Shown here: one piece after another, positions 18,993 to 55,561 of the stretch
Numbering within the stretch: position 1 is the stretch's first letter
Layout: every line of letters begins with the position of its first letter
From: a virus
DNA length: 64,000 nt
Strand: one strand, 5' to 3'
IMG/VR virus record: IMGVR_UViG_3300034073_002480
Location: 74,723 to 138,722 of that record
Notes under the pieces: generated by a model
What the model was told of the DNA's origin: nothing
Databases searched by the model: none
Seen by the model: the letters and a program-made list of their open reading frames with translations, nothing else
Translations under genes and position numbers: made by a program

Positions 18993-19324
18993 GATTTACC
19001 TCAAAATAAACTAATATATTATTGTCAATATCATAATCAAGGCTTACAAAATTCTGCGTTATTACAATAATTTGTGTAATAGCATGAAGTAATTTATCCT
19101 GATTACCAAGACTTATACGACAATAGTTTGGTTCTTCGTACTCGCACGAAAAATCATTTTTGAGAAAACATTTTTTCAAAGTAGGTAGTAGTGTTTTCTC
19201 TAAATACTCTTTTTCTTCTGCTGACTCGAATACAAGTACAATACTTTGATAGTTTAACGGCATAATAACACCATAGAAAAAACAAAAGACGCTGCCGAAA
19301 CAACATCTTTCTTTTATTTATAAA

Positions 19325-19396
19325 TAGGCGCGGTTGGATTCTAACCAACATACCATCTGTTATGAGCAGAGTTCCTTGACTGTCGGACACGCGCCC
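19325..19396 (-). tRNA. tRNA with CAT anticodon (elongator Met or Ile2); CCA not encoded
   Basis: Minus strand GGGCGCG...CGCGCCT-A acceptor stem; anticodon arm TCTG-CTCATAA-CAGA; T arm GTTGG-TTAGAAT-CCAAC. Confidence 0.85.
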
Positions 19397-19627
19397 AAAT
19401 GAAGGTTATACGTTACCTACAAACGTGAAATGTCGAACCGATCCTAGCAAGAGAGGTGTTCTCGTCCACGCCAACTGTACCGAGATTATGATCCACAAGG
19501 CTATTATTGGCAGCCCTTATGCTACTTCCTGAAGAGTGTTTTTCATACAAGATCGCTTTTTTCATGTCAGCCGACATTGGTTTTAACAGGGGACTCCTAA
19601 GAGCGCGTAGCTGTTATTGTGTATAGG

Positions 19628-21805: not shown

Positions 21806-22143
21806 GTGTTTATTGTATCTCTTGTAGTTTGTTGTAGTAAGGTAGCAAAGGATTGGATTGTGCTAGAAAAACATCTAACACCACGAACTTTCTCTGCCAC
21901 CATACAGATTGAGAAGCGAGAGCGCGTGAAAAACCCCAACCTTCAGATATAACCGAGAAATCGATCTCAGATGCATTATATAAACGCACAGTATGCTGTA
22001 GAGGATCATAAGACTGGATCGTGTACACCGAAGGATACCACAAACCATTACTATATGATCCCATCAGGACAGCATCTTTAGCGGTGTACATTACGCACTT
22101 GGTTTTTGGCTCGAACATACTTAGTTGTAGAAACGACTAGTAT

Positions 22144-29244: not shown

Positions 29245-29359
29245 GTTTTTGTGTTATAATAATATTGAGGAACTTAAATAGTCTGATCCACTATTGAAAT
29301 TAGCAACTAACTAGGCTACGTTCCTTTTATTTTTAGTTAGATTAGTTAGTGAGAAAATT

Positions 29360-30157
29360 ATGTATAGTTTGCAAGACTGCTATAAAACACCGAAAGATTC
29401 AGATCTTTGTAAGTTTGGCGTTTATTGTATTGAAAATATTAATAGTGGTAAGCAGTATATAGGAAGTACATCTGGTAGTTTTTCTAAAAGATTTCGAGAA
29501 CATTTCAACGCTTTAAAAAATAACAAACATCATTCTCAGATATTGCAAAGAAGTTTCAACAAACATGGTATTGAGTCTTTCTCTTTAAAAATTTTAGAAG
29601 AAGTTGATACGAAAGATTATAAAATACTAAGAGCTAGAGAGCAGTATTATTTAGACACTCTAAAACCTGAGTACAACATACTTCCTAATGCTGAATCTTT
29701 TTCTGGTTACAAATATTCTGAAGAACGTAAGAAGAAACAGGTTAATGTTCTACGTTCTAAGTTTGCCGCTAAAGATTGTGGTGTTAAGTACCACCCTACA
29801 GATGGTAAATGGAGTGTACATATCTCCGTTACAGATTTTAAAATGAGTAATCTAGGTTATTTTAAAACTAAAGAGGAAGCACTAACAGCTAGGAAACAAG
29901 CAGAGGTTGTATTCTGGACGGAGGAGTTTGATAATCTGCCTACAGAAGAAAAGAAAATAATTGCTAAAAAATACAAGAAATCTATAGTCCGTGCTGATTG
30001 CACATCTGGTTACAGGTACATATCCATAAGTAGTGCCAGAATAGGCGGTAAATGTTGGAAATTTTTCTATAAACGAAAGCTGATACAGTCTTTCTATACA
30101 CTTGAAGAGGCTGTTGACTTCAGAGACAAATACCTCGAAGAAAACAACCTCGTCTAA
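29360..30157 (+). CDS. Free-standing GIY-YIG homing endonuclease with AP2-like DNA-binding repeats
   Basis: GVYCIEN...YIGST, REQYYLD, YN; C-terminal GVKYH...KWSVHI...LGYFKTKEEA AP2-like modules. Only large plus-strand gene; TGTTATAAT upstream at about 29252. Confidence 0.85.
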   Translation: MYSLQDCYKTPKDSDLCKFGVYCIENINSGKQYIGSTSGSFSKRFREHFNALKNNKHHSQILQRSFNKHGIESFSLKILEEVDTKDYKILRAREQYYLDTLKPEYNILPNAESFSGYKYSEERKKKQVNVLRSKFAAKDCGVKYHPTDGKWSVHISVTDFKMSNLGYFKTKEEALTARKQAEVVFWTEEFDNLPTEEKKIIAKKYKKSIVRADCTSGYRYISISSARIGGKCWKFFYKRKLIQSFYTLEEAVDFRDKYLEENNLV

Positions 30158-30165
30158 AGTGTAGA

Positions 30166-30960
30166 TCATGGTAGTTGAAAAGGTGCTAACACATGGGTTT
30201 GGTAGTGATCTGTATTAGAAGAATTACCTTGGATATCAGGCATCTGCCAACCTATGATACCATAACCTTTACCATACAAACAGATATTCCTTAGTTGCTG
30301 AGCTAGTAACATCGCGTTCTGCATATTGCCCCAGTATGTCTCTGGTGAACTTGTACTAGCACCACATCCACGTTGATCTACACCTAATTCTGGAGCTTGA
30401 TCTACGTTGTCATTTCTCATGTTAATATCGTGTTGACGAAAATCTTCGCCAAATCCAGTGCCATTGTAGATACCCATAGCAGACGACCATCCATCTAGAA
30501 TATTGTTTCCTGCATCTAGGTATAGCCAGTTTGTTTGACGTGCATCTGTGAAAGAATCTGGGTCTGGTTTTAAAATATTCATAATACGATTACGTGTTCT
30601 AATATTATCCACGCATGAGATAATGATCAGGTCTTGTGTACCTACTTTTTTCATCAGTTTCTCTAAGAGTCTCTTGTTAGCGAAAGAAGCCCAAAAATCA
30701 ACGTTACCGACATTATAATGTTGTTGTAGTTTACGTTGTAGCACAGCACCTTTTTGTTCACCCAAATCTCTATAGCAGAAATTTTGGCGCACTGTGTTAG
30801 ATTGAGAGACTGTATCAGCATCTATCAACACAATTAATGGTGACTGCAACCTTTTAAGTTCACCATAATGACCTACTATCCGCCCTAAACTATCGGCAAA
30901 ATAACTACCTGTACCACCACATCCTACCAGTGCAATCACAGGTTTATTGAATCTTAACAT
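30166..30960 (-). CDS. ThiF/E1 ubiquitin-like activating enzyme
   Basis: VGCGGTGS, DADTVSQSNTVRQNF, CVDNIRTR, WLYLDAGN; candidate catalytic Cys in RGCG. Confidence 0.9.
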   Translation of the reverse strand: MLRFNKPVIALVGCGGTGSYFADSLGRIVGHYGELKRLQSPLIVLIDADTVSQSNTVRQNFCYRDLGEQKGAVLQRKLQQHYNVGNVDFWASFANKRLLEKLMKKVGTQDLIIISCVDNIRTRNRIMNILKPDPDSFTDARQTNWLYLDAGNNILDGWSSAMGIYNGTGFGEDFRQHDINMRNDNVDQAPELGVDQRGCGASTSSPETYWGNMQNAMLLAQQLRNICLYGKGYGIIGWQMPDIQGNSSNTDHYQTHVLAPFQLP

Positions 30961-31612
30961 AATAATTAGCTCCCTCTTGGTAATAATCTGTATCTGGGGA
31001 GGACGACCATATAATAGATCTAGGCTTTTCTACTACATTCAACATATCACCCCAATATTTGGGATCTATTTCAGAACCTGTTTGTATTTTTGTGAAATCC
31101 TGTGCAACAGCTTTCAGATATTGTGGATAGGTGGTGGAATCTTGGTTTGTGAGGTCTCGATTGTGAATAGATTGCATGTAGCCATTGTAAACACTTGATG
31201 GACTTTTATTGTTATAAGCAACATCTCCATTACACCAATCACCATAATTACCTATGTTTCCAAGTTTGAGTGGTTTAAGGCAGTCAACAGTGTCATAACC
31301 AAACAAAGGTCTGTTACCATTACTGTATAACACCATAAAATGTCTTGGGATTGGCATTTGCAACGACTCTACTACGTCCTCGCTTTTCACCTTTCTGCTT
31401 AACAGACAGCTGTTATTGATTGCCCCTGCTCTACGACAGGTTTTGTCACGCAAAGAGCAGTCTAAACAGTACTTGAGAAAAAAATCTTCGGCATCAGATT
31501 TAATGCAGCTATAATAAAATGGTACTACAATGGGTTCAAACACGAACATTATAGTGTGTTTAAATATTACAGCAGTCTGGCAATGCGATGGTATTTCATA
31601 CTGTTGTGCCAT
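30944..31612 (-). CDS. Prokaryotic E2-like conjugating enzyme (Prok-E2_D / PRTRC protein B-like)
   Basis: PLKLGNIGNYGDWCNG resembles the PxxNxxxxGxxCxG motif; YMQSIHNRDL resembles FFxSxFNxDL; located between JAB and E1. Confidence 0.65.
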   Translation of the reverse strand: MAQQYEIPSHCQTAVIFKHTIMFVFEPIVVPFYYSCIKSDAEDFFLKYCLDCSLRDKTCRRAGAINNSCLLSRKVKSEDVVESLQMPIPRHFMVLYSNGNRPLFGYDTVDCLKPLKLGNIGNYGDWCNGDVAYNNKSPSSVYNGYMQSIHNRDLTNQDSTTYPQYLKAVAQDFTKIQTGSEIDPKYWGDMLNVVEKPRSIIWSSSPDTDYYQEGANYYVKIQ

Positions 31613-31614
31613 AA

Positions 31615-32583
31615 CTAATAACCACTACCGTAGAAGAAAGGATCGGCAACGTCCACACTATTATAGCGGTCGTAAGTAAAAAGATCCGCATATTGCACGT
31701 CTGCTGTAAGAAGGTCTGACAATACTGCTGGTAGCTCTTTTTCGATATCAGCTACAGTCACAGAAGGGTTAGCTAACATAATGTTTTCCAAAGCAGTCTT
31801 TAGTTTTTCAGCTAGACTCTTAGTATAAACAACACCACTTTTCGCTGGTTGTAGCCATTTTGTAGTTGTATTTCCTTTTTGCCACACAGGTGCTTGATAT
31901 ACAAAGCGTTTTACTTGAGTTTCACATACAGGTGCATACGCGGTATGTGTGTACGTCTGTAGTTCCGAATCTACAGGAAGGTCAATGAAGTCCCATGCTT
32001 GTGGAAAATAACGATAATTTGCGTAGCCGTTATTAGCAACTACTGTAGTACGGATTCGGTAGTCCATATCTGTTTGTCTGCCTGTAGGTATAGAGACAAT
32101 ACCATACAACAACGGAGTCTTCATTTCGTTGGTATCATCAACACCACTAGGAGATGGCATATCAAAAGGATGTAGATGAAAATGTGCATACAAAACCCAA
32201 CCATTAGCAACTAATGACTCCCGTGTATACTGTAGACCATCAAGTCCGTATAAGGGTAATGCATAGTTATAAGTAACAGATGCACCTGTCACTGTTTGAC
32301 TACCAACAACACAAATGAAGTCACCATCACGTTTGTAGTAACGACATTCAACTTCCGTTCCCTGTGCTAAATAATGCATAAAGAACGTGACCATTTGGTT
32401 CCACAGTCTGCGCGGAATCTTATGTTGTGGATTACCAACAAAACACTGCATAATAGCAGGATCAATTTTGTCATCAGTTGTGTAGTCACTGTACACAAAG
32501 TAAGAGCCGAGTTCTGTTACTTTCTCTTCTATGTAGTGACCAGTATTTAGCTGGTGGATTTCCGTTGTTTTTGTGGTTGTCAT
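31615..32583 (-). CDS. JAB/MPN metallopeptidase (PRTRC protein A-like)
   Basis: KIPRRLW...FF, catalytic E (TEVE), JAMM motif HLHP...SGVD. Confidence 0.8.
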   Translation of the reverse strand: MTTTKTTEIHQLNTGHYIEEKVTELGSYFVYSDYTTDDKIDPAIMQCFVGNPQHKIPRRLWNQMVTFFMHYLAQGTEVECRYYKRDGDFICVVGSQTVTGASVTYNYALPLYGLDGLQYTRESLVANGWVLYAHFHLHPFDMPSPSGVDDTNEMKTPLLYGIVSIPTGRQTDMDYRIRTTVVANNGYANYRYFPQAWDFIDLPVDSELQTYTHTAYAPVCETQVKRFVYQAPVWQKGNTTTKWLQPAKSGVVYTKSLAEKLKTALENIMLANPSVTVADIEKELPAVLSDLLTADVQYADLFTYDRYNSVDVADPFFYGSGY

Positions 32584-32604
32584 AATTCCTCTTAAAGACT
32601 ATAG

Positions 32605-32637
32605 AAAAAGAGGGGTGAGCTTTCAAAACCCACCCCT
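32605..32637 (-). terminator. Intrinsic terminator between Ubl and JAB genes
   Basis: Minus strand AGGGGTG...CACCCCT hairpin followed by CTTTTT. Confidence 0.7.
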
Positions 32638-32643
32638 ATAGGA

Positions 32644-33015
32644 TTAACCTAAGCGACCAGCAGGACGCTCAGGATCAGGGATTGCAACGGTTACAGGTGT
32701 TTGAGGAGTAACCGCATACTTAGCACTCAGTTCTGCGAAAGTAAGTGTAGGGTTAATCACAAAGATTTTACCCGCAACTATGTATTGCGCTGTGTAATTA
32801 TCTTGAAGAGTGATACCAGCGATCTTCGCTTGACCTGCTGCGAAATCAGCATAGGTTTGGTTGGGGTCATATTGAAACTGACCAGCGGAGGTGAAGCCAA
32901 ATCGAACTTCAGCACTGTTGTCAGCTTGGACTACAGTGGATACTGCAATAGGGGTAGGAGCAGTTTGTGTAGTAGAGGTAGAGAACTTAGAAAGGAGGTT
33001 GTTTAAGAAAGACAT
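32644..33015 (-). CDS. Putative ubiquitin-like (beta-grasp) protein; likely start MSFLNN
   Basis: Small protein ending ...PAGRLG with a C-terminal Gly; first gene of the JAB-E2-E1 operon. Confidence 0.6.
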   Translation of the reverse strand: MSFLNNLLSKFSTSTTQTAPTPIAVSTVVQADNSAEVRFGFTSAGQFQYDPNQTYADFAAGQAKIAGITLQDNYTAQYIVAGKIFVINPTLTFAELSAKYAVTPQTPVTVAIPDPERPAGRLG

Positions 33016-33044
33016 AGTTTTGTGTTTGTTGTTGTGCATATGGA

Positions 33045-33690
33045 TTACAGATGCAAACAATTACTTCTGATTACTCAGTACTCGAACCTCTTTCACTATC
33101 TTGTTACTTCAGAGTTGTTTACAGCTTTTGACAGCATTGTATCCTCCTACTTGTTACCCAGTTACTTCGTTGCTGACATCTTCATCAGGGCAGGGTATTT
33201 GCATCTGCAAGATCTAGATTTACTCTGTGCGCTTGTGTAAAGTATCTAATCTATAAAGTGCTTCACACAAGGAGAAGGTATAACCCTCTTGACTGTGTAG
33301 TCTAAACAACTACACAGTGAGGAGAGCTATACCAACCAACAATTATTGACAATTTGTTAATACAGTACTGGGCAATCTCTTACTTGTTACTTTCACTATC
33401 TTGTTACTTTCACTGCAAGCAGTTACTTTGTTCCCCAGCTACTTTGTTACTTCAGAGTGGTTTTCCCATATAACTCCTGACAACAGGGTGTTGGTTGTTA
33501 TAGGTTCGAGATTTACTATGTGCAATCTATGGCGTATCTAATCTCTAAAGTCCAACCATAGAAAGAGAGAATCAGTCCGTTACATTATATAGTGTGAAGC
33601 TACTGCCAACTATACAATATTAATAGGACAACCAACCCTCTTATCTAGACTGTTTTTACACAATCCAGATAGGAGAATTGTTGATTACAA
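33045..33690 (-). ncRNA. Large structured non-coding RNA or leader with two related modules
   Basis: No credible ORF; duplicated modules with covarying stems and G-U pairs favouring the minus strand; six GTTACTT repeats; 15-bp long-range stem 33045-33059/33196-33210. Confidence 0.6.
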
Positions 33691-33847
33691 CAAACTAGAA
33701 ATTAAAATATAATAGGGACAGCACTACACCCTCAGGATCGGAAGTATACTATATAACATAGTTCTAGCTGTTGTCTGCATTTAGTAGTAATCGCAATAAA
33801 ACAAAATCAGCTTAAGAAGCATCAAAGTCAAAATATATTTCAAACAT

Positions 33848-34273
33848 TTAATTATTATCCTGCATTGCACTGTTGTTAAAATAAAAACGTTCTGCTTGCT
33901 GTCTTACTTTTTTCTCAGGAACATCATGTACATTCTCAAAGTCACCATCAGCAATCAACACAAAGTATTGTACACCTAAATCTGTGGCAATCTTAATGTA
34001 AGGCTCCAACTCTTTTTTAGTTGTAGTCGTGTTGCTGACTATAGTGATATAACCATCTTGCAGTGACTTCTTAACTTCTGTCATACACCATTCATGTGCT
34101 GTCTGCAAGTAACGTGGATTCCAAGGTTCATCATTGTCAACAAACCACCGATCTGCTTCAAATTTCTTAGCTGCATAACCTAAGTCATAACCAGACATAT
34201 ATACTAAAAAATCAGCAAATGTTGACTTTCCTGAACCTGATACACCACGTAAGATTATAAGAACTGGTTGCAT
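33848..34273 (-). CDS. P-loop kinase (AAA_33, polynucleotide-kinase-like)
   Basis: LRGVSGSGKST, EAD, AHEWC, VSNT, NVHDVP. Confidence 0.8.
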   Translation of the reverse strand: MQPVLIILRGVSGSGKSTFADFLVYMSGYDLGYAAKKFEADRWFVDNDEPWNPRYLQTAHEWCMTEVKKSLQDGYITIVSNTTTTKKELEPYIKIATDLGVQYFVLIADGDFENVHDVPEKKVRQQAERFYFNNSAMQDNN

Positions 34274-34492
34274 AACTACCCCTTTGCAAATATTTCTGGT
34301 TTGTTTAAAAGTAAACCTAGCATATTACCCATCATAGCTTGCGAATGTTGCATTGAATCTGCACGTAATTTTTTATTGTCAATATCAAGTTCTTCACAAC
34401 GCTCTACTAAATGGTCAATACACTCTAGAAGATATTCAACGTGTTCATCATTTAATCTGTGTGGATTAGACCATAAAATGTTACGAATTTCT

Positions 34493-35041
34493 TTAACTGT
34501 CATAGCTATACCACTCAGGTTGTTGATTGATTGTCCAAGTAGGACGTTTGTTGTTTTTGAATACCTTGGCACACATATAGTCCCGATAAGCTTGTACAGC
34601 TACAGCCAATGGTTCTTTCGATTTGTACTTGGCTTTGACTTCCTCATACATAGCAAGAGGCACATCTGTCATACCTGATGGCAACCGTAGAAGAGAATGG
34701 GTTTTGTTGAAACTGGTAATAACTAAGCCTGTCATAGTACCATTGTTACCTTTCTTTTCCCATATAGCTTGCAATGCTTTGAGGTGTGTTAAAGTCCACA
34801 TAAAATTATCTTGAGACTGACGAACCCATACACAAGTAGGATGGTTTACAAAAGCTTTTTTGTAGATAAAGTACTTTTGGACATAACACAGACCATCTTT
34901 CTCTTCTACGGTCACATGCGGTGACAAATGATAAGCTGTTGACAACATCTGCGATGCTTCAAGGCGGATTTTACCTAAATGCTCATCACAATATAAAGAT
35001 GCTGCTGTGGCAGGATCAGGGTCAAGGAAGAATAGGTTCAT
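34493..35041 (-). CDS. Pyrimidine dimer DNA glycosylase / endonuclease V-like family protein
   Basis: MNLFFLD..P, CDEH..K..LEASQMLSTA, NHPTCVWVR, AYRDY. Confidence 0.75.
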   Translation of the reverse strand: MNLFFLDPDPATAASLYCDEHLGKIRLEASQMLSTAYHLSPHVTVEEKDGLCYVQKYFIYKKAFVNHPTCVWVRQSQDNFMWTLTHLKALQAIWEKKGNNGTMTGLVITSFNKTHSLLRLPSGMTDVPLAMYEEVKAKYKSKEPLAVAVQAYRDYMCAKVFKNNKRPTWTINQQPEWYSYDS

Positions 35042-35278
35042 TTACATTGATCTCCCATTTAAGAAATAATAACTGTACTACATACCGTTTCCAATATAGA
35101 GTAGAGTGTGGGTCGTCAAACTTACAAACAACCAATATAGGATAATTATTAATCATTATTGACACATAGAAAGTAAGTCTTATACCAGTGTGATACTCTA
35201 GATACCATTGCCAATTCTTAACACATACTGTCAGTTTCATTTCTTCTATGGTAGGGGGCTGTTAACCCCCTTTATTAT

Positions 35279-35668
35279 TTACTTACCAGCGTACTTAGCG
35301 TTGTATTCTGCTTCAAGTTCTTCAAGAGACTTAGCTTTTTTAGCTTCTTGACGTTTAGCATGAATCAACTCTCTTAACTCACGTTCTTCAGCAGATTCTT
35401 GAGCAGCAGTGCGACTTGCATCTTGTTGATCGAGCTTATATTGCAAAACACTGACAATGATATCACGTTCTAATTGCAAAGTAGTGTTAGCGGCTGTTTT
35501 AGTACGCAAATAACCTTGTTGACCAGATTGTGCAATTTGTGCATCTCTTGCCAATGCAGCTTGGTTCAATGTCTCTACAGGAAGATCAAACAAATCTTCA
35601 GTTGTTAGAACACCTTTACCTAAACCAGAAAAACGAACCTTTTGTGCTAAAGCTTGGATAAAAGACAT
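35279..35668 (-). CDS. Conserved phage helical protein
   Basis: KGVLTTEDLFDLP motif; directly downstream of the 721 aa ORF. Confidence 0.6.
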   Translation of the reverse strand: MSFIQALAQKVRFSGLGKGVLTTEDLFDLPVETLNQAALARDAQIAQSGQQGYLRTKTAANTTLQLERDIIVSVLQYKLDQQDASRTAAQESAEERELRELIHAKRQEAKKAKSLEELEAEYNAKYAGK

Positions 35669-35739
35669 AATTTTGTTGTTTGTTGTTGTGTGTTTACAAG
35701 AAAGACGGTTTTACGGATGACCGACAACCCCGCAAAGCG

Positions 35740-37875
35740 CTATACCTTGACTCGTAGTACACGTTGGCTTGCGCCTGTAACACGAACCAAGAAGTCATTT
35801 CTCAATGTAGAAGAGAAGCCTAAACCTGATAGCTGTTGTTGAGAAGGTTCAACCAACAACCGTCTACCCAAGATTTCAAATACCTTCCGATGTGGGTACA
35901 AAGATTCAACTAAAAACTCATTGTAAAACCCACGAACAACAGGATCATTGTTTAGTGCTTTTTCCAACACAAAGAAGAAGTGCTTATTACCTTTTTGATC
36001 ACCATTATGCCAGTAGTTCGGTGACAATAGTGCTACAGATACAGGTTGCCAAGTATTTGTGGTTAAACCCCAAACTTCTTTGCTTTGTACTGTGCTATTA
36101 GATTCTAGAGATTCAATAAACTGAATACCTGTTGTCTTGTTAAAAACAAACTTTGCTACAGTGATATTTTGTTCAGGTCGAAGGTCAGCACTGTAATGAT
36201 ACTTATATATTACGCCATCATATTCAATCTCTGCTGAAAAACCACCGTTAGAATTTCGTGACTCAAAGTTGTTGACGTAAAAATGGTAGATCCCTTCTGG
36301 CATTTTCGCAAGATCATGGTAGACAATGTTTTCAACAGCAATTTCACCATCAGGATGGATAATATCTACATCTAAGATACCTGAAGCTGGTGATCTATAT
36401 CTTACATCTCTACCTCTATATGTGCGGAAATAGATGTGTTCACTACTACCACCTTCAATCTCGGCATGAGCATCAAAGTCTATATTGTTATTGCCAGATT
36501 CGTTCCACATTATAGAGAACCGCAACACACCAGTTACCGAACCACCTGCTTTTTCTACGTTGCGTTTGATAATAGAGTCAGTAACATCTCCTGTATAGTA
36601 CCAGCTAAAGTTATTAGCCCAACGTGTTAGTGGTTTAGCATCAGGATTTGTAGGTGCGATCAACGAGAAAAGATTATTGGTGTGTTTGTTTTCCAACAAA
36701 ATGTCTACAGATGTAGACTTCGGTAGAATGTTATTCAAGAAATCATCAATAGTGACTTCAGCAATCCTTGCCAACTTTTTGGGATCGGTAGGTGTATCTT
36801 GCTTCAACAAACCAAAAACAGACTTGACGTTAGATGTTAGGGATCTATTCAACCACAGAACATCATTAGCCGATATGTCTTCCTGAACTGCGTATCGTCT
36901 TGCAAGAGAGTCAACCAACCCTTCTTCTACGGCTGTTTTTTCAGCTTCAGCGATTTGGCGTTGAGAAACCATAGCTGTTGTACGTTTGTAGTTTTGAGGA
37001 GCTACAACAGATTCGTATTTACGCACTGCAATATCGAGGTCAACATCTTTGCTGATGTCAATAAGTAGAGTACCGATGGCAGAATTACGGATTTTAGCAA
37101 CACTGACACCAACTCTTTGAGCAGCAACCCAGTAATAATTCTCTACTTGTTGTGGTGTGAGAACCGTAGAAATAAAGGTTTGCTGTTCTTGTAAGAAAGT
37201 TTCTAGTGTTGCTTTGTACTCTACACCTTTGTATAAACCTTGGTCAATAAGTTCCAACACAGTCTGCACAGTTTGTGTATCAAACTCGTCTAATGCACGT
37301 TTAAACACATTGCGAGGGTCTCTGTAGTCCTGTGGTGTACGTCCTGTAACATAAGAACGAGGGACTTCCAAATACAAGTGTTCCCATTCGATTGTGTTTA
37401 CAAGCTTCTGTGTTGTAGGGTCTAGCACACGCTGAATATTAGACCTTAAACCTAGTTTCTGTGATTCGGGAATAAATACATCACGGATCTTACAGCAATA
37501 TACAAGGTCACGCATGTTGTTGATAACCGACTGCCACATAGGATCGTCAACCGTGAAGTCCCAAATAGACCACAAGTTATAATCAACATCAATAGCTACA
37601 ATGTGACCGTAATTCTTGATAAAAGAACGGCAAGCATTACAGTTGTGCGACTGACGTTCTGCACCAGCAGGGAAAGATTCGAGATAAGTGTCCCACAAAG
37701 ATTGTCGATCCATATCTACAACATACAACTGACGACCTGCTGCGGTAATCTGTGCAAAATTGGACTGGAAAACACGCACAAATTGGTTGAAAGTCATTGG
37801 TTGTTTTCTACCAGCGAAACGCTCACCCTCTACGGCAATCATTTCTCTGTCAACAGTCTGTTCAATAAAAAGCAT
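35740..37875 (-). CDS. Large conserved phage protein (HNCxxC motif; C-terminal TerD/YfaP-like beta domain)
   Basis: HNCNACRSFI; LRFSIMWN...DFDAH...LDVD...VENI. Start moved to MLFIEQ because a terminator occupies 37893-37919. Confidence 0.6.
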   Translation of the reverse strand: MLFIEQTVDREMIAVEGERFAGRKQPMTFNQFVRVFQSNFAQITAAGRQLYVVDMDRQSLWDTYLESFPAGAERQSHNCNACRSFIKNYGHIVAIDVDYNLWSIWDFTVDDPMWQSVINNMRDLVYCCKIRDVFIPESQKLGLRSNIQRVLDPTTQKLVNTIEWEHLYLEVPRSYVTGRTPQDYRDPRNVFKRALDEFDTQTVQTVLELIDQGLYKGVEYKATLETFLQEQQTFISTVLTPQQVENYYWVAAQRVGVSVAKIRNSAIGTLLIDISKDVDLDIAVRKYESVVAPQNYKRTTAMVSQRQIAEAEKTAVEEGLVDSLARRYAVQEDISANDVLWLNRSLTSNVKSVFGLLKQDTPTDPKKLARIAEVTIDDFLNNILPKSTSVDILLENKHTNNLFSLIAPTNPDAKPLTRWANNFSWYYTGDVTDSIIKRNVEKAGGSVTGVLRFSIMWNESGNNNIDFDAHAEIEGGSSEHIYFRTYRGRDVRYRSPASGILDVDIIHPDGEIAVENIVYHDLAKMPEGIYHFYVNNFESRNSNGGFSAEIEYDGVIYKYHYSADLRPEQNITVAKFVFNKTTGIQFIESLESNSTVQSKEVWGLTTNTWQPVSVALLSPNYWHNGDQKGNKHFFFVLEKALNNDPVVRGFYNEFLVESLYPHRKVFEILGRRLLVEPSQQQLSGLGFSSTLRNDFLVRVTGASQRVLRVKV

Positions 37876-37892
37876 AGTTTTTCCTATGAAAT

Positions 37893-37919
37893 AAAAAAGC
37901 AGCAAGATACGTTTGCTGC
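37893..37919 (-). terminator. Intrinsic terminator
   Basis: GCAGCAA/TTGCTGC stem plus T6 on the minus strand. Confidence 0.65.
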
Positions 37920-38268
37920 ATATAAATAAACCTTGGAGAACTTTGTGCCTAGCACGACCCTTCCACCGTATCTAATGGTTGAGTCAACGAAATTTATAGC
38001 GAATCTAGAAATGTAGCAAACCTAGCTTCAATAACTGCAATCTGTTGAAGTCTTGTAATAGCTTCTTGAGTAGTTTGAAAGTATTCACGTTTTTGGAATG
38101 ACAAAAAGAAATTTTCATCATCAGCCCACACAGAAATATTAGGATCTTGTGTATCAAACGACTTCACCTTCTCTCGCATCTCTGGTGTGTAACCATCAAA
38201 GACAAAAGATTTGGCGTAGTCGGTTTTCTTGTTAGACTCCCATTTATGGGATGATAGTTTTATGTTAA

Positions 38269-39648
38269 TCACGACTCAATCTCCTCTGTGTCAACATAGT
38301 CTGGTCGATCTTTCATAAACCCTTCCATAGCAAGAAAGTACCAGTTTTTCTCTTTCAAGAACCAAGTCTTACCTGCATGATCAACACGTACAACTACACC
38401 TTCAGGGAATTGGTTAGGAAATGTGGATTGCAAAGACAAAGATTCAACATAACTGATTAAATCTTTAGCACCAAAACTAGATAAAGTTGGATGATAATTA
38501 TGACTGACATGAAGTTCAGGTACATGATCTACACCTAGTTCAGCACATCTTGCCTTGACAGCATCCCACGATAGATCCCATTGGTAGCCATCCTCATTGG
38601 TGACAGCTATTCTGTACACATACGCTTTAGCTGTACCGTTAGGGACACCGTAGTTGTAAGTGATTTCAGAACCATACTGCTTAATGAACTTCTTGTCACC
38701 TGTTACTGCCGTATTATGAGGTGGCATTATATGCTTATCAGGAGCAACCCAACCTACAATCTCATAATACAGTGTCTCACCTTTACGCAAAAACGGTAGC
38801 AAACGGTCAGCAATAGCCCAACGAAAGTCATCAGAGCCATAGTAGCCTGTATTACCACTAGCTTTCTTCAAGATGACACGGCGAGTACCATTTTGAGGTA
38901 TATAACCCTTGATGGTATGCTTTGTTTTCTCTTCTATGGTTTGTCTAAACCAATTCCACATTTTATTGACTGGTCGCCAAGGTGTGTTTACATTTAGATA
39001 ACGAAAGACCGTAGAAATAAAGGGGTTGTAGACTTCTTGTTCTGTGTAAGCTAAACTAACCCGACCCGATGTTCCGTGCTGCTTCTCAGTAATAGTAACA
39101 GTAGCGCCAACAGGTATTTTGTGTATGTTCCTGCGGAAATTTTCTGTTTCTACATGTTCAGGGAATTGAATCTTAGCTTTCAACCGAGGTTTGTCTTTTT
39201 TGTTTGTGGTTTTTGCTAATCTTGTAGCTGGTGTTTCATACTTCTTACAGATTTCCACACCACCGATCTCTGTGAAACCATAACCAGCTTGCAGAACAGA
39301 ACGATCAAATTCTAGAAAATCAAGAGAAGACAAAGGCATCACTAAACCATTAGACTTGTAGGAACGTAAATTCAACGCTCTGATTCTACCATTAGGGTCG
39401 AGATAACCAGTACCAATTCGCTGACGCACACCATCAATTTCTTCAAAGCGCTCATATAAACCATTGGCTTCACAGTATTCCTTTGACAAACAACCATCAG
39501 TTTCAAAAAACACAACAAGGTCGTCTGGTTTGTAGTTACCAATACCCACAACTACATGTGTATTGCAAACAACAGCTATTTCTAACCGATCTGCGTTAGG
39601 GTGTGGGAGAATAGCTTGTACAGGTGTAATAATAGCTTGGTAAGACAT
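38269..39648 (-). CDS. RNA ligase, DRB0094-like, with N-terminal OB domain
   Basis: HPNADRLE, SNGL, motif I EKQHGTS, YYEIVG, EGVVVR, LKEK. Confidence 0.85.
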   Translation of the reverse strand: MSYQAIITPVQAILPHPNADRLEIAVVCNTHVVVGIGNYKPDDLVVFFETDGCLSKEYCEANGLYERFEEIDGVRQRIGTGYLDPNGRIRALNLRSYKSNGLVMPLSSLDFLEFDRSVLQAGYGFTEIGGVEICKKYETPATRLAKTTNKKDKPRLKAKIQFPEHVETENFRRNIHKIPVGATVTITEKQHGTSGRVSLAYTEQEVYNPFISTVFRYLNVNTPWRPVNKMWNWFRQTIEEKTKHTIKGYIPQNGTRRVILKKASGNTGYYGSDDFRWAIADRLLPFLRKGETLYYEIVGWVAPDKHIMPPHNTAVTGDKKFIKQYGSEITYNYGVPNGTAKAYVYRIAVTNEDGYQWDLSWDAVKARCAELGVDHVPELHVSHNYHPTLSSFGAKDLISYVESLSLQSTFPNQFPEGVVVRVDHAGKTWFLKEKNWYFLAMEGFMKDRPDYVDTEEIES

Positions 39649-45747: not shown

Positions 45748-46573
45748 AATAAATCAAACACCTTTTTGAATAAAACTAATGAGTCATCGTACCATAAGAC
45801 CTGATCTTTTAGAGATCTATTATAACTGTATGGTCTATGGTTAAAACATAAAGACTCAAACTGCTTCAGATTTTCTCTAGTTATTTCTGTCAAATCTTCT
45901 TTTCTATGGTCTTCAAAAGGTGTAGGACAAGAGCATCCTGAATCAGTAGCATAGTAAAGTTTGTTTGTTTCAGTGTCTTTAAAAACAACCAGCATATCAA
46001 ATTCATAGGAGTCAGCTACGTCTACGTTATCTATGATCTGTAAACCAAAATGTTCTGGATTATAGTATATGTTTTTCATCTTATTAACGACCCAAAAGTA
46101 TAAAACAAAGACATACCCAACAACCCCATAGAAAAGAAAAGCTGCTGTGCTTCATTGTTGCGTAGCAGATGACACAAAAACAAAGCACAAAAAAACACCA
46201 GCGATAAGCCAGTGTTGAAATTGATAGTTGTGATTAATTGTTGCATAGCTACTTAACCGTAAAAATATGCAATACTAAGACAATATTGGATACACCTAAC
46301 ATCACTGCTTGTAATAGAATACCTTCTTCTGATCTTGCTCTACCAGAGAACAAAACCATACTTGTGTACATCATAACAGCATAATCAACTGAAAAAACAA
46401 TAGCTTGTTGTATAGACATCTTAATTTTTAGCTCCACATACAGTACATTCACCTGTGGTTTGATCTACTTCACCGCCAGACTGTTCTTTGTTACCATTAG
46501 AATCTTTACGCCCAGTTTCACGTGTGCAATAATAAGTCATAATTTGTTAATCCTCTAATTTAAGTGTACAAAT

Positions 46574-46598
46574 AAAAAGCAGGGTTGTTAGCCCTGCT
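46574..46598 (-). terminator. Intrinsic terminator
   Basis: GCAGGG/CCCTGC stem plus T5. Confidence 0.7.
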
Positions 46599-46609
46599 GT
46601 GTGTATTAT

Positions 46610-50377: not shown

Positions 50378-50379
50378 GT

Positions 50380-50487
50380 TTACTCATCCTTATTTATATT
50401 GCTAAACACTTCAATTGTCTGTCCCAATACTAGAATAATTAAAGGACTACACACAAACAAAGTTACTAAAACGACTAAAGTTGTCAT
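50380..50487 (-). CDS. 35 aa hydrophobic peptide MTTLVVLVTLFVCSPLIILVLGQTIEVFSNINKDE
   Basis: Manual translation; AAGG just before the ATG; stop codon adjacent to the next start. Confidence 0.55.
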   Translation of the reverse strand: MTTLVVLVTLFVCSPLIILVLGQTIEVFSNINKDE

Positions 50488-50489
50488 TA

Positions 50490-50810
50490 CCTTGTTTTTG
50501 TTTTGCTGGACTACCCCTATCCCTGCTGTTGTTGTAGCAAGTTACCGACTTTGGCACGGTTACAGATAACTCAATTCTGTAGTTAGGTTACAGCAATCTC
50601 TTAGTTCGCAGCTACTTTAGCTTTGACAGGTCGTAAGCAGTGACAAGCGAAGACGCTGTGTGATTTACAACCGTGAGATCCGAAAGAACTACTTACCACT
50701 CGCTGTATGACAGCCACCTGTAACTCTTTAACAGGTCGGTATTGAGGGTTGGCGCGTTACCGCTACCTTTCACCCGTTGGGCTTTGCTCTTTGCTTGCCC
50801 TCTCTCGATG
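50490..50810 (-). ncRNA. ~320 nt structured 5' leader or ncRNA
   Basis: GC-richer, ORF-free tract with consecutive hairpins, directly downstream of a consensus-like promoter. Confidence 0.55.
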
Positions 50811-50815
50811 TAACT

Positions 50816-50844
50816 AATATAAACTGATGACTAGAGAATAGCAA
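50816..50844 (-). promoter_or_regulatory. Sigma70-type promoter
   Basis: TTGCTA-17 nt-TATATT on the minus strand, AT-rich upstream, preceded by a terminator. Confidence 0.7.
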
Positions 50845-51005
50845 GCATTTTGTTAATACTGTAATAATTAGAAATGTTTGGTAATTTTTACTTATGATTG
50901 CAAGAAATTTTAGGGATTTTAGTAATGATTTTTGGGCTTTCAGCGCTTTGTAAATTCAAAATGATCTCTTATATATAGATATGCAAACAACAGCCTAGCA
51001 AGCAA

Positions 51006-51039
51006 TAAAAAAGCGCTTTACATTCAATCGTAAAGCGCT
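51006..51039 (-). terminator. Intrinsic terminator
   Basis: 10-bp AGCGCTTTAC/GTAAAGCGCT stem plus T tract. Confidence 0.75.
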
Positions 51040-51439
51040 CGATCATCTATATATAGTGCAAAATCAAACAGGCAAAGAAACTCGTTTAATTTTCCCTAAA
51101 AAGTCAGTTTGTGCCTGAGCAGCTATATTTTGATAAACTGCTTGTTGTTGTTTTTCAATTTCTGCCAGAACTGCATCTAAACCACGTTCTAGAGCAGCTA
51201 ATCTTCTCTGTTTTGTTCGTTCTGACTGGTTATGTCGTTCAATGGCAGCAGCTTGTTGTGCTGCTTTTGCAACAGCAAGGTCAGCATAGAACTTGCAAAC
51301 ACGGTTGTGAAATGTAGCACGACCTCGATCTGCTAGATTGTGAGGGACAGTGTACCACAACAACACACGACCACTACGTTTTACTACCAAAGCAAACTCT
51401 ACAACGTTTGCAGACTTTGTTTCGTGTAGAACGTGATAC

Positions 51440-55096: not shown

Positions 55097-55561
55097 TGTT
55101 TTTGTCCTAATGTGTTTGTTTTTCTACGGTGGATTAGTGTACCACCACGCCCTGCTAGGTACAGGGACGACTCCTTTTGTTTTATTTGCGTGGAGTCAGC
55201 AAAGTTAATCTACTTTTTTCAAATGTTCAAAAGCTTCTTGCCAGTTAACTCTGGACAATGCAGCGTTGATAAGGTCAGTTTGCATTGGATTGGTATTGTC
55301 AATGGGAAGTACAACAGATTCTACCCATTCTTGAAAGTCATCTTGGTTATCATGACTTCTTGTAGTAGAAAGGTGTCGTTGATTGTTCCCGATCTCCAAA
55401 ACTACTAAAAAAGTTTCGTAGTTTGTGTAGCCTTGATATGACTGGTCTTGCATGGAAAATAACCTAAAAATTTAATGTGCTGTTAGTTTATGCTTATATT
55501 GTCTAGCTGTTAATATAGACGTAATAATTCGTAACAATTAAACCTGAAAAAAGAAAGAAAT

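What the first reader, a model, noticed from the sequence alone, without database searches (positions are those of the whole stretch)
33045..33760. ~700 nt internally duplicated structured RNA directly upstream of the Ubl gene
Seen on the minus strand: two related modules (about 33690-33370 and 33340-33045). Each has UCUCCU-[hairpin of different sequence]-AAGAGGGUU, then ACUUUA(G/U)AGAUUAGAUAC...GCACA(U/G)AGUAAAUCU(C/A)GA with a compensatory G-C to U-A change, then AAAC(C/A)ACUCUGAAGUAACAA and AAGUAACAAGAUAGUGAAAG. AAGUAAC recurs six times (33103, 33161, 33386, 33403, 33422, 33446). A 15-bp stem (33045-33059/33196-33210) closes a multibranch domain. G-U pairs support the minus strand, and a possible -10 lies near 33745-33760. 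Inference: a large phage ncRNA presenting repeated protein-binding motifs (CsrB-like sponge or scaffold), possibly functionally coupled to the ubiquitin-like system.
Basis: partly seen in the sequence, partly recalled or inferred. Interest (0 to 1): 0.75.

Follow-up and report, generated by a model that had tools for sequence, protein, structure and literature searches.

The report
Modular pseudoknotted RNA before phage Ubl gene
The 830-base gene-free stretch in front of a freshwater phage's ubiquitin-like gene encodes a previously uncatalogued, repeated, pseudoknot-containing structured RNA whose helices are kept by compensating mutations in related phages, and it most likely controls that gene's messenger RNA.

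Summary
Window 33016-33847 (minus strand) has no ORF. It lies between an AAA_33 kinase-like gene and a 123-aa beta-grasp (Ubl) gene, and it holds two homologous modules of about 300-345 nt.

The only related phages I could reach carry the same module in the same place, with different copy numbers:
- L005: one copy
- this window: two copies
- L009: three copies, one of them truncated

Each full module contains:
- a long P1 hairpin
- a variable hairpin
- an H-type pseudoknot (Pa/Pb) with invariant loops
- a closing helix around an A-rich domain with AAGUA(A/G)C repeats

A CA-rich, unstructured leader without a Shine-Dalgarno sequence then runs into the Ubl AUG.

Covariation is strong for so few sequences. 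In the pseudoknot 98.8% of cells pair and 7 of 15 pairs carry compensatory changes. In P1 94.4% of cells pair and 10 of 22 pairs do. Slid controls gave at most 2 such pairs. G-U pairs place the RNA on the gene strand.

Rfam 15 has no matching family. There is no terminator between the RNA and the Ubl ORF, and a strong one follows the ORF, in 3 of 3 lineages.

My best reading (0.5) is a new cis-acting leader or intercistronic RNA of the Ubl mRNA. The CsrB-like sponge idea is not supported as stated. Function and transcript ends remain untested.

The parts
33016..33847 (-). Whole ORF-free RNA region between the AAA_33 gene and the Ubl gene
   Evidence: No sense-strand open stretch longer than 32 aa, with 14-26 stops per frame. 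No Rfam family matches. Homologous intergenic regions exist in L005, L008 and L009.
33699..33847 (-). 5' spacer. It has no module, but it contains a block conserved with L009 (about 33745-33774) that in L009 follows a truncated first module. It also holds a weak promoter-like site at 33777-33748.
   Evidence: Alignment A3; consensus scan. The promoter is not established.
33631..33682 (-). Module A, P1 long hairpin. The strands are 33660-33682 and 33631-33653. The outer stem is formed by the conserved UUCUCC and GAGGG.
   Evidence: Alignment A5 and pair counts. RNAalifold predicts it independently. The DNA variants 33664, 33666 and 33637 in run X10 all keep their pairs.
33571..33630 (-). Module A variable hairpin region (S2). 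It ranges from 7 to 86 nt across modules.
   Evidence: L008 and L009 differ here by a replaced hairpin.
33497..33570 (-). Module A pseudoknot core. Pa pairs 33555-33563 with 33526-33533. Pb pairs 33540-33545 with 33508-33513. The core starts with the pyrimidine tract plus TCTATGGT.
   Evidence: Alignment A4 and pair counts with pseudoknot notation. Covariance model R1 scores it at E = 6.4e-18.
33327..33503 (-). Module A closing helix (33489-33503 with 33327-33341). It encloses a small hairpin and the A-rich repeat domain, with AAGTAAC at 33446, 33422, 33403 and 33386. Its 3' strand overlaps the outer 5' strand of module B's P1.
   Evidence: Inverted repeat I3, 15 nt at 93%. RNAduplex gives -21.8 kcal/mol, reached by 3 of 200 shuffles. 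Repeat positions.
33279..33333 (-). Module B, P1 long hairpin
   Evidence: Inverted repeat I1, 25-nt arms. Pair counts. Two compensated pairs against L009 module 3.
33204..33278 (-). Module B pseudoknot core. Pa pairs 33261-33270 with 33233-33242. Pb pairs 33248-33253 with 33215-33220.
   Evidence: Inverted repeat I11. R1 scores it at E = 1.2e-15.
33045..33210 (-). Module B closing helix (33196-33210 with 33045-33059) around the A-rich domain, with AAGTAAC at 33161 and 33103
   Evidence: Inverted repeat I6. RNAduplex gives -25.6 kcal/mol, reached by 2 of 200 shuffles. Repeat positions.
33016..33044 (-). CA-rich leader without a Shine-Dalgarno sequence, predicted to be unstructured, running into the Ubl AUG
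   Evidence: Sequence. The fold of leader plus ORF start leaves it unpaired. The same kind of leader occurs in L005 and L009 and upstream of other genes of this phage.
32644..33015 (-). 123-aa ubiquitin-like (beta-grasp) protein gene
   Evidence: AF2 model, pLDDT 62.3, with a b-b-a-b-b-a-b core. Foldseek best hits are SUMO2, ubiquitin, the parkin Ubl and the bacterial Ubl 8tyx, at E about 2e-3 and TM 0.6-0.7. C-terminal Gly is nearly invariant in 23 sequences.
32611..32637 (-). Intrinsic terminator directly after the Ubl ORF
   Evidence: 12-bp stem plus T tract. An equivalent terminator follows the Ubl gene in L009 and in L005.
31615..32583 (-). 322-aa protein with an invariant H-x-H-x7-S-x2-D (JAMM-type) motif; a probable JAB peptidase
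   Evidence: Invariant H136, H138, S146 and D149 in A6. Atlas neighbours carry Prok-JAB in 31-44% of members. No Pfam hit.
30944..31612 (-). 222-aa Cys/His-rich protein of unknown family; an E2-like role is not shown
   Evidence: No family found. Only 4 database relatives.
30166..30960 (-). ThiF-type E1-like protein
   Evidence: Pfam ThiF at 4.8e-13. PADLOC CBASS E1-E2 models down to 3.6e-8.
33848..34273 (-). Upstream AAA_33 (polynucleotide-kinase-like) ATPase gene. In L005 and L009 the first module begins within about 5 nt of its stop codon.
   Evidence: Pfam AAA_33 at 3.6e-10 and phrog_2071 at 2e-28. Sequences.

Best explanation
This is a previously uncatalogued family of modular structured RNA. 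It is made from the gene strand as the long 5' leader or intercistronic part of the phage's Ubl mRNA.

The unit is one module of about 220-350 nt, present here twice. A module contains:
- a long P1 hairpin
- a variable hairpin
- an H-type pseudoknot whose loops are almost invariant
- a closing helix that holds out an A-rich domain with AAGUA(A/G)C repeats

The last module ends 29-42 nt before the AUG. Those nucleotides form a CA-rich, unstructured leader without a Shine-Dalgarno sequence.

The inferred mechanism is cis control of the Ubl message. An unknown factor would be read by the invariant pseudoknot pocket and/or the repeats. It could be a protein of the Ubl pathway, a host RNA-binding protein or a small ligand. 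Binding would set how much Ubl is translated, or how long the [RNA + Ubl] transcript lives, up to the terminator just after the ORF. Copy number (1, 2 or 3) would tune the strength of that control.

Shown: the RNA structure, the strand, the modularity, the exclusive position before the Ubl gene, and the absence of an intervening terminator.
Inferred: co-transcription, the cis action and the existence of a bound factor.
For: Structure:
- Pseudoknot Pa+Pb: 6 modules, 15 pairs, 84 cells, 98.8% paired, 7 pairs with changes on both sides. None of 500 shuffles reached the observed value for four of the five measures; 5 of 500 did for further pair types. Partner-slid controls gave 26-52% paired and at most 1 such pair.
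- P1: 5 modules, 22 pairs, 108 cells, 94.4% paired, 10 compensated pairs. Slid controls gave at most 2.
- RNAalifold predicts P1 and Pa independently.
- A closing helix sits at the same place with unrelated sequence in 5 of 5 full modules. In 4 of the 5 it is more stable than all but 0-3 of 200 shuffles.
- Three DNA variants inside module A's P1, from another lake sample, all keep their pairs.

Strand: 19 G-U cells. There is no sense ORF, and 1- and 4-nt indels against L009 rule out coding on either strand.

Link to the Ubl gene:
- The module sits directly upstream of the Ubl gene in 3 of 3 lineages that have upstream sequence.
- Model R1 finds only these modules in G000 (138.7 kb) and G001 (132 kb).
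- Pattern scans of IMG/VR find only G001.

Transcription unit: no terminator-like site lies between the RNA and the ORF, and a strong terminator follows the ORF, in 3 of 3 lineages. In L005 and L009 the first module starts within about 5 nt of the upstream stop codon, which leaves no room for a promoter in the gap.

Leader: it is predicted to be unpaired.

No known family: Rfam 15 gives nothing at gathering level on the window, and only scattered sub-threshold hits at E up to 10 or up to 5 on the region and on L005 and L009.
Against: - Only three phage lineages and six modules are available, and paralogous modules are not independent. No R-scape-grade statistic is possible.
- Transcription is not shown. 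Contigs from two RNA libraries (X15, X19) and from a third library only guessed to be RNA (X16) cover parts of the region. They are contigs, DNA carry-over cannot be excluded, and they also cover neighbouring genes.
- No expression platform was found. There is no alternative terminator and no sequestered start site.
- 300-nt modules with a repeat domain are much larger than ordinary riboswitch or operator leaders.
- L009 module 1 and L009 module 3 lack the AAGUA(A/G)C repeats, so the repeats cannot be essential to every module.
- The first 12 nt of the type-A core coincide with a word that is strongly over-represented across the phage genome. This hints at a trans or DNA-level connection that the cis model does not explain.
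Confidence: 0.5

Rival explanations
1. The modules are a trans-acting ncRNA. They would be cut out of the transcript, or act while still attached to it, and serve as a sponge, decoy or scaffold for a protein or for other RNAs. Candidates are a factor that binds the AAGUA(A/G)C repeats, or whatever recognises the genome-wide (pyrimidine tract)-TCTATGGT word that opens the type-A pseudoknot core.
For: - The module size, ornate fold, tandem copies and variable copy number resemble free-standing ornate RNAs more than operators.
- AAGUA(A/G)C is enriched in 4 of 6 modules.
- The word T[CT]T[TC]TCTAT[GA][GT] occurs 38 times in G000, against 2.3 in Markov shuffles.
- 22 of those copies are antisense within ORFs that I called crudely, so the mRNAs carry the exact complement of the RNA's core 5' segment.
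- Codon choice shows the word is selected at nucleotide level: 19 of 32 I-E-K/R tripeptides use ATA-GAA-A[AG]A, against about 4 expected.
- Each of the three RNAs keeps one module with an intact TCTATGGT.
Against: - There is no terminator or recognisable processing site between the modules and the ORF.
- The CUAUGG part of the word is the 5' strand of Pa. In L009 module 2 it mutated together with its partner, so RNA pairing is what selection preserved there, not the word.
- Type-B modules lack the word.
- The repeats are missing from 2 of 6 modules.
- GGA-type CsrA sites are not enriched.
- The word occurs on both strands, which fits a DNA-level signal at least as well.
Confidence: 0.25
2. The RNA is a working part of the Ubl pathway itself. 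It could be a scaffold, a sensor or even a substrate that brings together the Ubl, the E1, the JAMM-motif protein and the 222-aa protein. The pathway would then be RNA-gated.
For: The RNA shows exclusive and conserved adjacency to this operon in 3 of 3 lineages. The operon contains an uncharacterised Cys/His-rich 222-aa protein with no family.
Against: There is no direct evidence. Adjacency is equally explained by cis regulation. I recall no RNA partner for the Bil, Bub or CBASS-type Ubl systems, and none turned up in the passages and abstracts I saw.
Confidence: 0.1
3. The repeats act at the DNA level, as iterons of a replication origin, an array of protein-binding sites, or promoters. The apparent RNA structure would then be incidental.
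For: The region is long and gene-free and holds clustered direct repeats. It contains one copy of a genome-wide over-represented word that also occurs as inverted pairs elsewhere.
Against: - Compensatory changes and G-U pairs are strand-specific RNA signatures.
- The helices keep their pairing while their sequences diverge completely, for example Pa of type A against type B, and the closing helices.
- The number and positions of the repeats are not conserved between homologues.
- The cumulative GC skew does not turn at this position.
Confidence: 0.05
4. It is a self-cleaving ribozyme, a mobile RNA element or a decaying duplication with no present function.
For: Tandem units and one truncated unit (L009 module 1) show turnover by duplication and deletion.
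Against: - No known ribozyme, intron or retron RNA family matches, even at E up to 10.
- No reverse transcriptase or transposase lies next to it.
- The loops are invariant and the stems compensated across lineages whose Ubl proteins are only 62-64% identical, which argues for purifying selection.
Confidence: 0.05

Closest known systems
Autoregulatory leader of phage T4 gene 32 mRNA (recalled knowledge, not from a call)
   Same: A phage mRNA leader in which a 5' pseudoknot is followed by short A-rich repeats and an unstructured translation-initiation region. It controls the gene immediately downstream.
   Different: The T4 element is under 100 nt and single-copy, and its repeats are not enclosed by a helix. 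The regulated protein there is an ssDNA-binding protein that binds its own leader. Here the modules are 220-350 nt and occur 1-3 times, the gene is a Ubl, and no binding partner is known. There is no sequence relation.
Tandem riboswitch and T-box leaders, for example tandem glycine aptamers or multi-T-box leaders (recalled)
   Same: Repeated complete sensing units lie in one leader upstream of one gene. Unpaired nucleotides are invariant around covarying stems, and a pseudoknot is part of the conserved core.
   Different: No Rfam riboswitch or T-box model matches. No terminator/antiterminator or start-site-sequestering platform was found. The modules are larger and carry a repeat domain.
Large ornate phage-associated RNAs GOLLD and ROOL (Rfam)
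   Same: They are large, multi-domain, pseudoknotted RNAs of unknown function found in phages, prophages and lake metagenomes.
   Different: The Rfam models do not match. GOLLD and ROOL are single RNAs of about 600-800 nt, usually near tRNAs, with their own ends. This one is a tandem of smaller units fused to an mRNA.
CsrB/RsmZ-type protein sponges
   Same: A non-coding RNA with many copies of a short motif.
   Different: The defining GGA motifs in hairpin loops are absent (8 GGA against 10.6 expected). The repeated word here is AAGUA(A/G)C. It lies mostly in predicted single-stranded A-rich stretches and is not present in every module.
Type III toxin-antitoxin RNA arrays (ToxI and relatives; recalled)
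   Same: Tandem pseudoknot-forming RNA repeats lie directly upstream of a small protein gene on a mobile or phage-related element, and the copy number varies.
   Different: ToxI-type repeats are about 34-45 nt, and a terminator separates them from an endoribonuclease toxin gene. Here the units are about 300 nt, there is no intervening terminator, and the protein has a beta-grasp Ubl fold.
BilABCD, Bub and CBASS Cap2/Cap3 ubiquitin-like operons (context of the RNA)
   Same: The operon has a Ubl with a C-terminal Gly, a ThiF-type E1 and a JAMM-motif protein. This is the set described for Bil: Ubl, E2, DUB and E1 (passages of 10.1101/2023.09.04.556158).
   Different: This operon is encoded by a lytic-looking freshwater phage, not a bacterium. 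The Ubl has a single beta-grasp domain, whereas BilA has two. The gene order differs and an E2 has not been identified. No RNA element is mentioned in the Bil preprint (0 occurrences of 'RNA' in its main text).

Membership tests
Any Rfam 15 family (including GOLLD, ROOL, OLE, HEARO, raiA, riboswitches, T-box, known ribozymes, Y-RNA-like) | Score at or above the family's gathering threshold with its covariance model | tested here: not met
   0 matches in the 64-kb window at gathering level. At E up to 10 the region gives only mir-8338, MIR6143, U12 and RT-2, at 13-25 bits against thresholds of 40-80. L005 and L009 give nothing in the RNA region.
CsrB/RsmZ-type CsrA sponge | Many GGA (A(N)GGA) motifs, mostly in hairpin loops | tested here: not met
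   8 GGA in 832 nt against 10.6 expected from composition; 1 A.GGA.
CsrB/RsmZ-type CsrA sponge | Independent transcript with its own promoter and terminator | tested here: not met
   No terminator-like site between the RNA and the Ubl ORF in 3 of 3 lineages. Transcript ends were not measured.
Type III TA antitoxin RNA (ToxI-like) | Tandem direct repeats of about 34-45 nt followed by a terminator and an endoribonuclease toxin gene | tested here: not met
   The units are 220-350 nt. There is no intervening terminator. The downstream protein has a beta-grasp fold.
Riboswitch (tandem) | Conserved aptamer with covarying stems and invariant unpaired positions | tested here: met
   The pseudoknot core has 38 invariant columns of 76, and 7 of 15 pairs are compensated.
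Riboswitch (tandem) | Expression platform (a terminator/antiterminator or occlusion of the start site) that overlaps the aptamer | tested here: not met
   No terminator before the ORF. The leader and AUG are predicted to be unpaired.
Riboswitch (tandem) | Specific ligand binding | not testable with these tools
   Needs in-line probing or ITC.
T4 gene-32-type autogenous translational operator | Pseudoknot followed by an unstructured repeat-bearing leader that reaches the start site | tested here: inconclusive
   The pseudoknot, the A-rich repeats and the unstructured leader are all present. However, the repeats lie inside a closing helix and not in the leader proper.
T4 gene-32-type autogenous translational operator | The regulated protein binds its own leader | not testable with these tools
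   Needs a gel shift or filter binding with the Ubl or the other operon proteins.
Replication-origin iterons | Regularly phased direct repeats conserved in number and position, with no RNA-type covariation | tested here: not met
   Repeat spacings are irregular (8, 16, 19 and 17 nt in module A). Repeats are absent from 2 of 6 modules. The helices covary and contain G-U pairs.
Ubl-E1-JAB conjugation operon (context) | Beta-grasp protein ending in Gly, a ThiF-type E1, a JAMM peptidase and an E2 | tested here: inconclusive
   The beta-grasp fold and C-terminal Gly and ThiF are met. The JAMM motif is seen only as invariant residues plus Atlas neighbours, with no Pfam hit.

The most novel reading that the evidence does not exclude
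The RNA is an integral partner of a viral ubiquitin-like conjugation system. Its invariant pseudoknot and repeat domain would bind a pathway protein or a signal and gate Ubl supply or conjugation. Its core 5' segment would also tie it to a regulatory word present in about 40-50 copies across the phage genome. That would make it the first RNA component known for any prokaryotic or viral Ubl pathway.
Probability: 0.15. Interest if true: 0.9.

Novelty: new variant of a known kind. Interest (0 to 1): 0.7.

Why it matters
Prokaryotic and phage ubiquitin-like conjugation systems have only recently been recognised, and nothing is known about how their Ubl supply is controlled.

This region offers a conserved RNA of several hundred nucleotides, with a pseudoknot, welded to the Ubl gene of widespread freshwater phages. 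The phage sequence is held by runs from 14 studies, most of them freshwater or lake metagenomes. That gives a concrete handle for experiments. If the RNA senses a ligand or a pathway protein, it could reveal what the phage system responds to.

Independently of function, it is a new ornate RNA fold with clear covariation. It has a natural series of one, two and three copies, which is useful for structural and evolutionary study.

As a sequence family it is new: it has no Rfam match. The general kind, a long structured phage leader or ornate phage RNA, is already known.

Tried and rejected
Homologue searches
- Close homologues by DNA: blastn of window 32000-35000 against 50,697 GenBank phages gave no match.
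- tblastn of the Ubl and of the JAMM-motif protein against the same set gave no match.
- IMG/VR scans with the Ubl protein, a 20-nt repeat word, the AAA_33 protein, the Ubl alignment, the 322-aa alignment and the E1 alignment returned one kin record only (G001), or only distant AAA_33 genes (L002-L004, 37% identity) that lack the RNA.
- The GTDB genome scan with the core pattern gave 2 hits (L012, L013). On reading them they lack the Pa stem and every flanking feature, so I treat them as chance.
- The metagenome scan gave 5 loci. Only L008 and L009 have usable upstream sequence. L006 and L007 have 91 nt, and L010 has none.

Ideas tested and dropped
- rRNA mimicry: the repeats and the pyrimidine tract reminded me of the 16S 3' end. 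I tested this against E. coli rrsH (L022). The best local scores were 20-23, against shuffle means of 20-21; 24-88 of 100 shuffles reached them. Rejected.
- Coding potential on either strand: rejected.
- CsrA-type sponge: rejected.
- Whole-module RNAalifold: it misaligned the 3' halves and cannot model the pseudoknot. I used it only as independent support for P1 and Pa.
- The S2 hairpins are not individually more stable than shuffles.

RNA libraries
- Contigs of X15 (32938-33315), X16 (33020-33347) and X19 (33230-33568, with a 50-nt skip) overlap the RNA. X16 is only guessed to be an RNA library.
- They are contigs, they also cover other genes, and DNA carry-over is possible. Parts without cover mean nothing. 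I do not count this as proof of transcription.

Literature
- Two searches for a phage Ubl-linked RNA and one for phage structured-RNA surveys turned up nothing on this element.
- PMC10690425 (passages seen) predicts 8,495 candidate RNAs from IMG/VR 3. Its main text has 0 occurrences of 'ubiquitin'.

Not done
- The fold of the 222-aa protein could not be predicted.
Full report
WHERE IT IS. The window is the 3' 64 kb of a 138.7-kb IMG/VR virus record (G000). Nearly all genes lie on the minus strand. The finding sits in an 832-nt stretch, 33016-33847, with no sense ORF longer than 32 aa.

Upstream is a 141-aa AAA_33, polynucleotide-kinase-like ATPase (33848-34273). Downstream, in this order:
- A 123-aa gene (ATG at 33015).
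- An intrinsic terminator (32637-32611).
- A 322-aa protein with invariant H-x-H-x7-S-x2-D. Its Atlas neighbours carry Prok-JAB in 31-44% of members.
- A 222-aa Cys/His-rich orphan protein.
- A ThiF-type E1 (Pfam 4.8e-13).

The 123-aa protein models as a beta-grasp fold (pLDDT 62.3). Its best structural matches are SUMO2, ubiquitin, the parkin Ubl and a bacterial Ubl. These are weak (E about 2e-3) but consistent, with TM 0.6-0.7. It ends in a nearly invariant Gly. 'Ubl gene' is therefore a fair label.

AAGTAAC is not over-represented in the window as a whole (16 found, 17.2 expected). However, 6 of the 16 copies sit on the minus strand within 350 nt of this region.

HOMOLOGUES. The phage has no cultured relatives. 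A two-block pattern taken from the region found one IMG/VR record, G001 (locus L005). An alignment of 23 Ubl sequences found five metagenome loci. All show the same gene order: AAA_33, gap, Ubl, terminator, JAMM-motif protein, 222-aa protein, E1. L005 has one extra small ORF.

The gap holds one module in L005 (390 nt). It holds three in L009 (809 nt; the first is truncated and lacks the closing helix and repeats). L008, a contig that ends inside the gap, holds at least two. The module is therefore the unit, and the window carries a tandem pair that is orthologous to L009 modules 2 and 3.

ANATOMY OF A MODULE. Each module has five parts:
1. P1, a hairpin of 22-25 bp. Its outer stem is formed by the conserved UUCUCC and GAGGG.
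2. A variable region of 7-86 nt that forms a hairpin when it is long. L008 and L009 are otherwise identical here but carry different hairpins.
3. A pyrimidine tract followed by an H-type pseudoknot. The 5' strand of Pa comes first, then loop 1 with invariant ACUUUA, then the 5' strand of Pb, then AGAUA(C/U). The 3' strand of Pa follows, then a loop with invariant GCACA, then the 3' strand of Pb, then GA(A/U)C(C/U)U.
4. A closing helix whose sequence differs completely between module types. It encloses a short hairpin and an A-rich stretch with 2-6 AAGUA words, mostly AAGUA(A/G)C.
5. After the last module, 29-42 nt of CA-rich, unpaired leader without a Shine-Dalgarno sequence run into the AUG.

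Other genes of this phage also have CA-rich, SD-less leaders. That leader is therefore probably an ordinary strong initiation region in this host.

STRUCTURE IS UNDER SELECTION. On the six distinct cores, with Pa and Pb written as a pseudoknot, 98.8% of 84 cells pair and 7 of 15 pairs have changes on both sides. No shuffle of 500 reached the observed percentage paired, compensated pairs, compensated cells or covariation score. Sliding the partners by 1-3 columns drops pairing to 26-52%, with at most 1 compensated pair.

On five P1 hairpins, 94.4% of 108 cells pair and 10 of 22 pairs are compensated. Slid controls gave at most 2. RNAalifold finds P1 and Pa on its own. Closing helices are more stable than all but 0-3 of 200 shuffles in 4 of 5 full modules; L005's 8-bp version is not.

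In a lake-water DNA run, three variants inside module A's P1 change A-U to G-U, G-U to A-U and U-G to U-A. Nineteen G-U cells would be mismatches on the other strand, so the RNA is read from the gene strand.

Caveats: six modules from three lineages is a small and partly paralogous sample. The shuffle control does not correct for relatedness. Whole-region folding energy is unremarkable (z = -2.9 against -2.5 for the other strand).

NOT A KNOWN FAMILY. Rfam 15 gives no match at gathering level in the window. In permissive mode it gives only scattered hits far below threshold, on the region and on L005 and L009. A covariance model of the core (R1) finds only the two window modules and the L005 module in the two near-complete phage genomes (E = 1e-15 to 1e-19; the next best hit is at E about 0.8). 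It finds nothing in three distant AAA_33-bearing contigs. A degenerate core pattern finds only G001 in IMG/VR and two chance hits in 185,579 species genomes.

HOW IT PROBABLY WORKS. In 3 of 3 lineages there is no terminator-like site between the RNA and the Ubl ORF, and a strong terminator lies directly after the ORF. In L005 and L009 the first module begins within about 5 nt of the upstream stop codon. Transcription must therefore enter from upstream, or from within the AAA_33 gene.

The simplest reading is that the modules are the leader or intercistronic part of a short, discrete [RNA + Ubl] message and act on it in cis. The invariant loops of the pseudoknot look like a binding pocket. The A-rich repeats and CA-rich leader look like a platform for a single-strand-binding factor or for the ribosome. 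I could not find an expression platform, so the switch itself is inferred, not shown. I give this reading 0.5.

A trans-acting, processed RNA gets 0.25. An RNA that is itself part of the Ubl machinery gets 0.1.

AN UNEXPLAINED LINK. The pyrimidine tract plus TCTATGGT that opens the type-A core is one of the most over-represented words in the phage:
- T[CT]T[TC]TCTAT[GA][GT] occurs 38 times, against 2.3 in 30 Markov shuffles.
- TTCTATGGT has 40 other copies.
- TCTATGGT has 49 copies in all, most of them preceded by a pyrimidine tract.
- The word lies on both strands. Sense copies often sit 6-45 nt before start codons and just after terminators, including the one after the Ubl gene here and in L009.
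- 17 of 22 antisense copies are read as (T/N)-I-E-(K/R). Codon choice shows nucleotide-level selection: 19 of 32 such tripeptides use the word's codons, against about 4 expected.
- G001 shows a weaker enrichment, 19 against 7 for the control.

Each of the three RNAs keeps one module with the intact word. In L009 module 2 the word was lost together with compensating changes in Pa, so pairing was what selection kept there. Whether the word is a promoter, a protein site or a pairing target of the RNA is open.

EXPRESSION. The sequence is held by runs of 14 studies, mostly freshwater and lake DNA metagenomes. Contigs from two metatranscriptome libraries overlap the RNA. They also overlap neighbouring genes, and contigs can show neither level, strand nor ends. 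One RNA-library contig skips the 50-nt P1 hairpin of module B between TCTCCT direct repeats. This could be a reverse-transcription or assembly artefact, or a real variant.

NOVELTY AND VERDICT. The RNA is real, structured, modular and specific to the Ubl operon of a small group of uncultured freshwater phages. As a family it is new to Rfam, and new to the literature as far as I could search it (supplements closed). Its general kind, a long structured phage leader or ornate RNA, is known. Function and transcript boundaries need experiments.

Noticed in passing
Whole record G000, for example window 32598-32609, 33555-33566 and 19270-19281 (minus); also G001: A word of about 16 nt, a pyrimidine tract followed by TCTATGGT (or TCTATGTT), is massively over-represented on both strands. 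There are 38-49 copies against about 2 expected. It often sits just before start codons or after terminators, sometimes as inverted pairs. Inside genes it is held by codon choice. Its meaning is unknown.
   Followed up: partly
window 30166-33015 (minus); L005 5944-9159; L009 1748-4651: The operon is phage-encoded and consists of a Ubl, a JAMM-motif protein, an orphan 222-aa Cys/His-rich protein and a ThiF E1. The Ubl and the 322-aa JAMM-motif protein have no relative in 50,697 GenBank phages; the E1 and the 222-aa protein were not searched there. L005 carries an extra 126-aa ORF (6368-6748) between the Ubl and the JAMM-motif gene.
   Followed up: partly
window 29360-30157 (+): A GIY-YIG/AP2-type homing endonuclease gene lies on the opposite strand directly after the E1 gene. 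It is one of the very few plus-strand genes in the window.
   Followed up: no
window 33270-33319: A 289-nt contig from an RNA library (X19) joins 33269 to 33320. It skips the P1 hairpin of module B between TCTCCT direct repeats. This may be a reverse-transcription or assembly artefact over a stable hairpin, or a natural deletion variant.
   Followed up: no
window 35669-35700, 21806-21835, 29245-29275 and 55097-55125 (upstream of minus-strand genes): Several genes have CA-rich leaders without a Shine-Dalgarno sequence, like the Ubl leader. Others use AAGAGG. This suggests a host with weak SD dependence.
   Followed up: no
window 50378-51063 and 46080-46609: Two further stretches of 686 and 530 nt have no ORF of 90 aa or more. 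They were not examined for RNA structure. Rfam found nothing in them at gathering level.
   Followed up: no
window 33848-39648 (minus): The neighbourhood upstream of the RNA is rich in nucleic-acid repair genes: the AAA_33 kinase-like gene, a pyrimidine-dimer glycosylase-like gene (34493-35041) and an RNA ligase (38269-39648). A tRNA-Met lies at 19324-19397.
   Followed up: no
window 33534-33543 and 33242-33251 (minus): The invariant GAUUAGAUAC of the pseudoknot is identical to a 10-nt stretch of E. coli 16S rRNA (positions 785-795 of rrsH). By the shuffle test this is no more than chance.
   Followed up: yes
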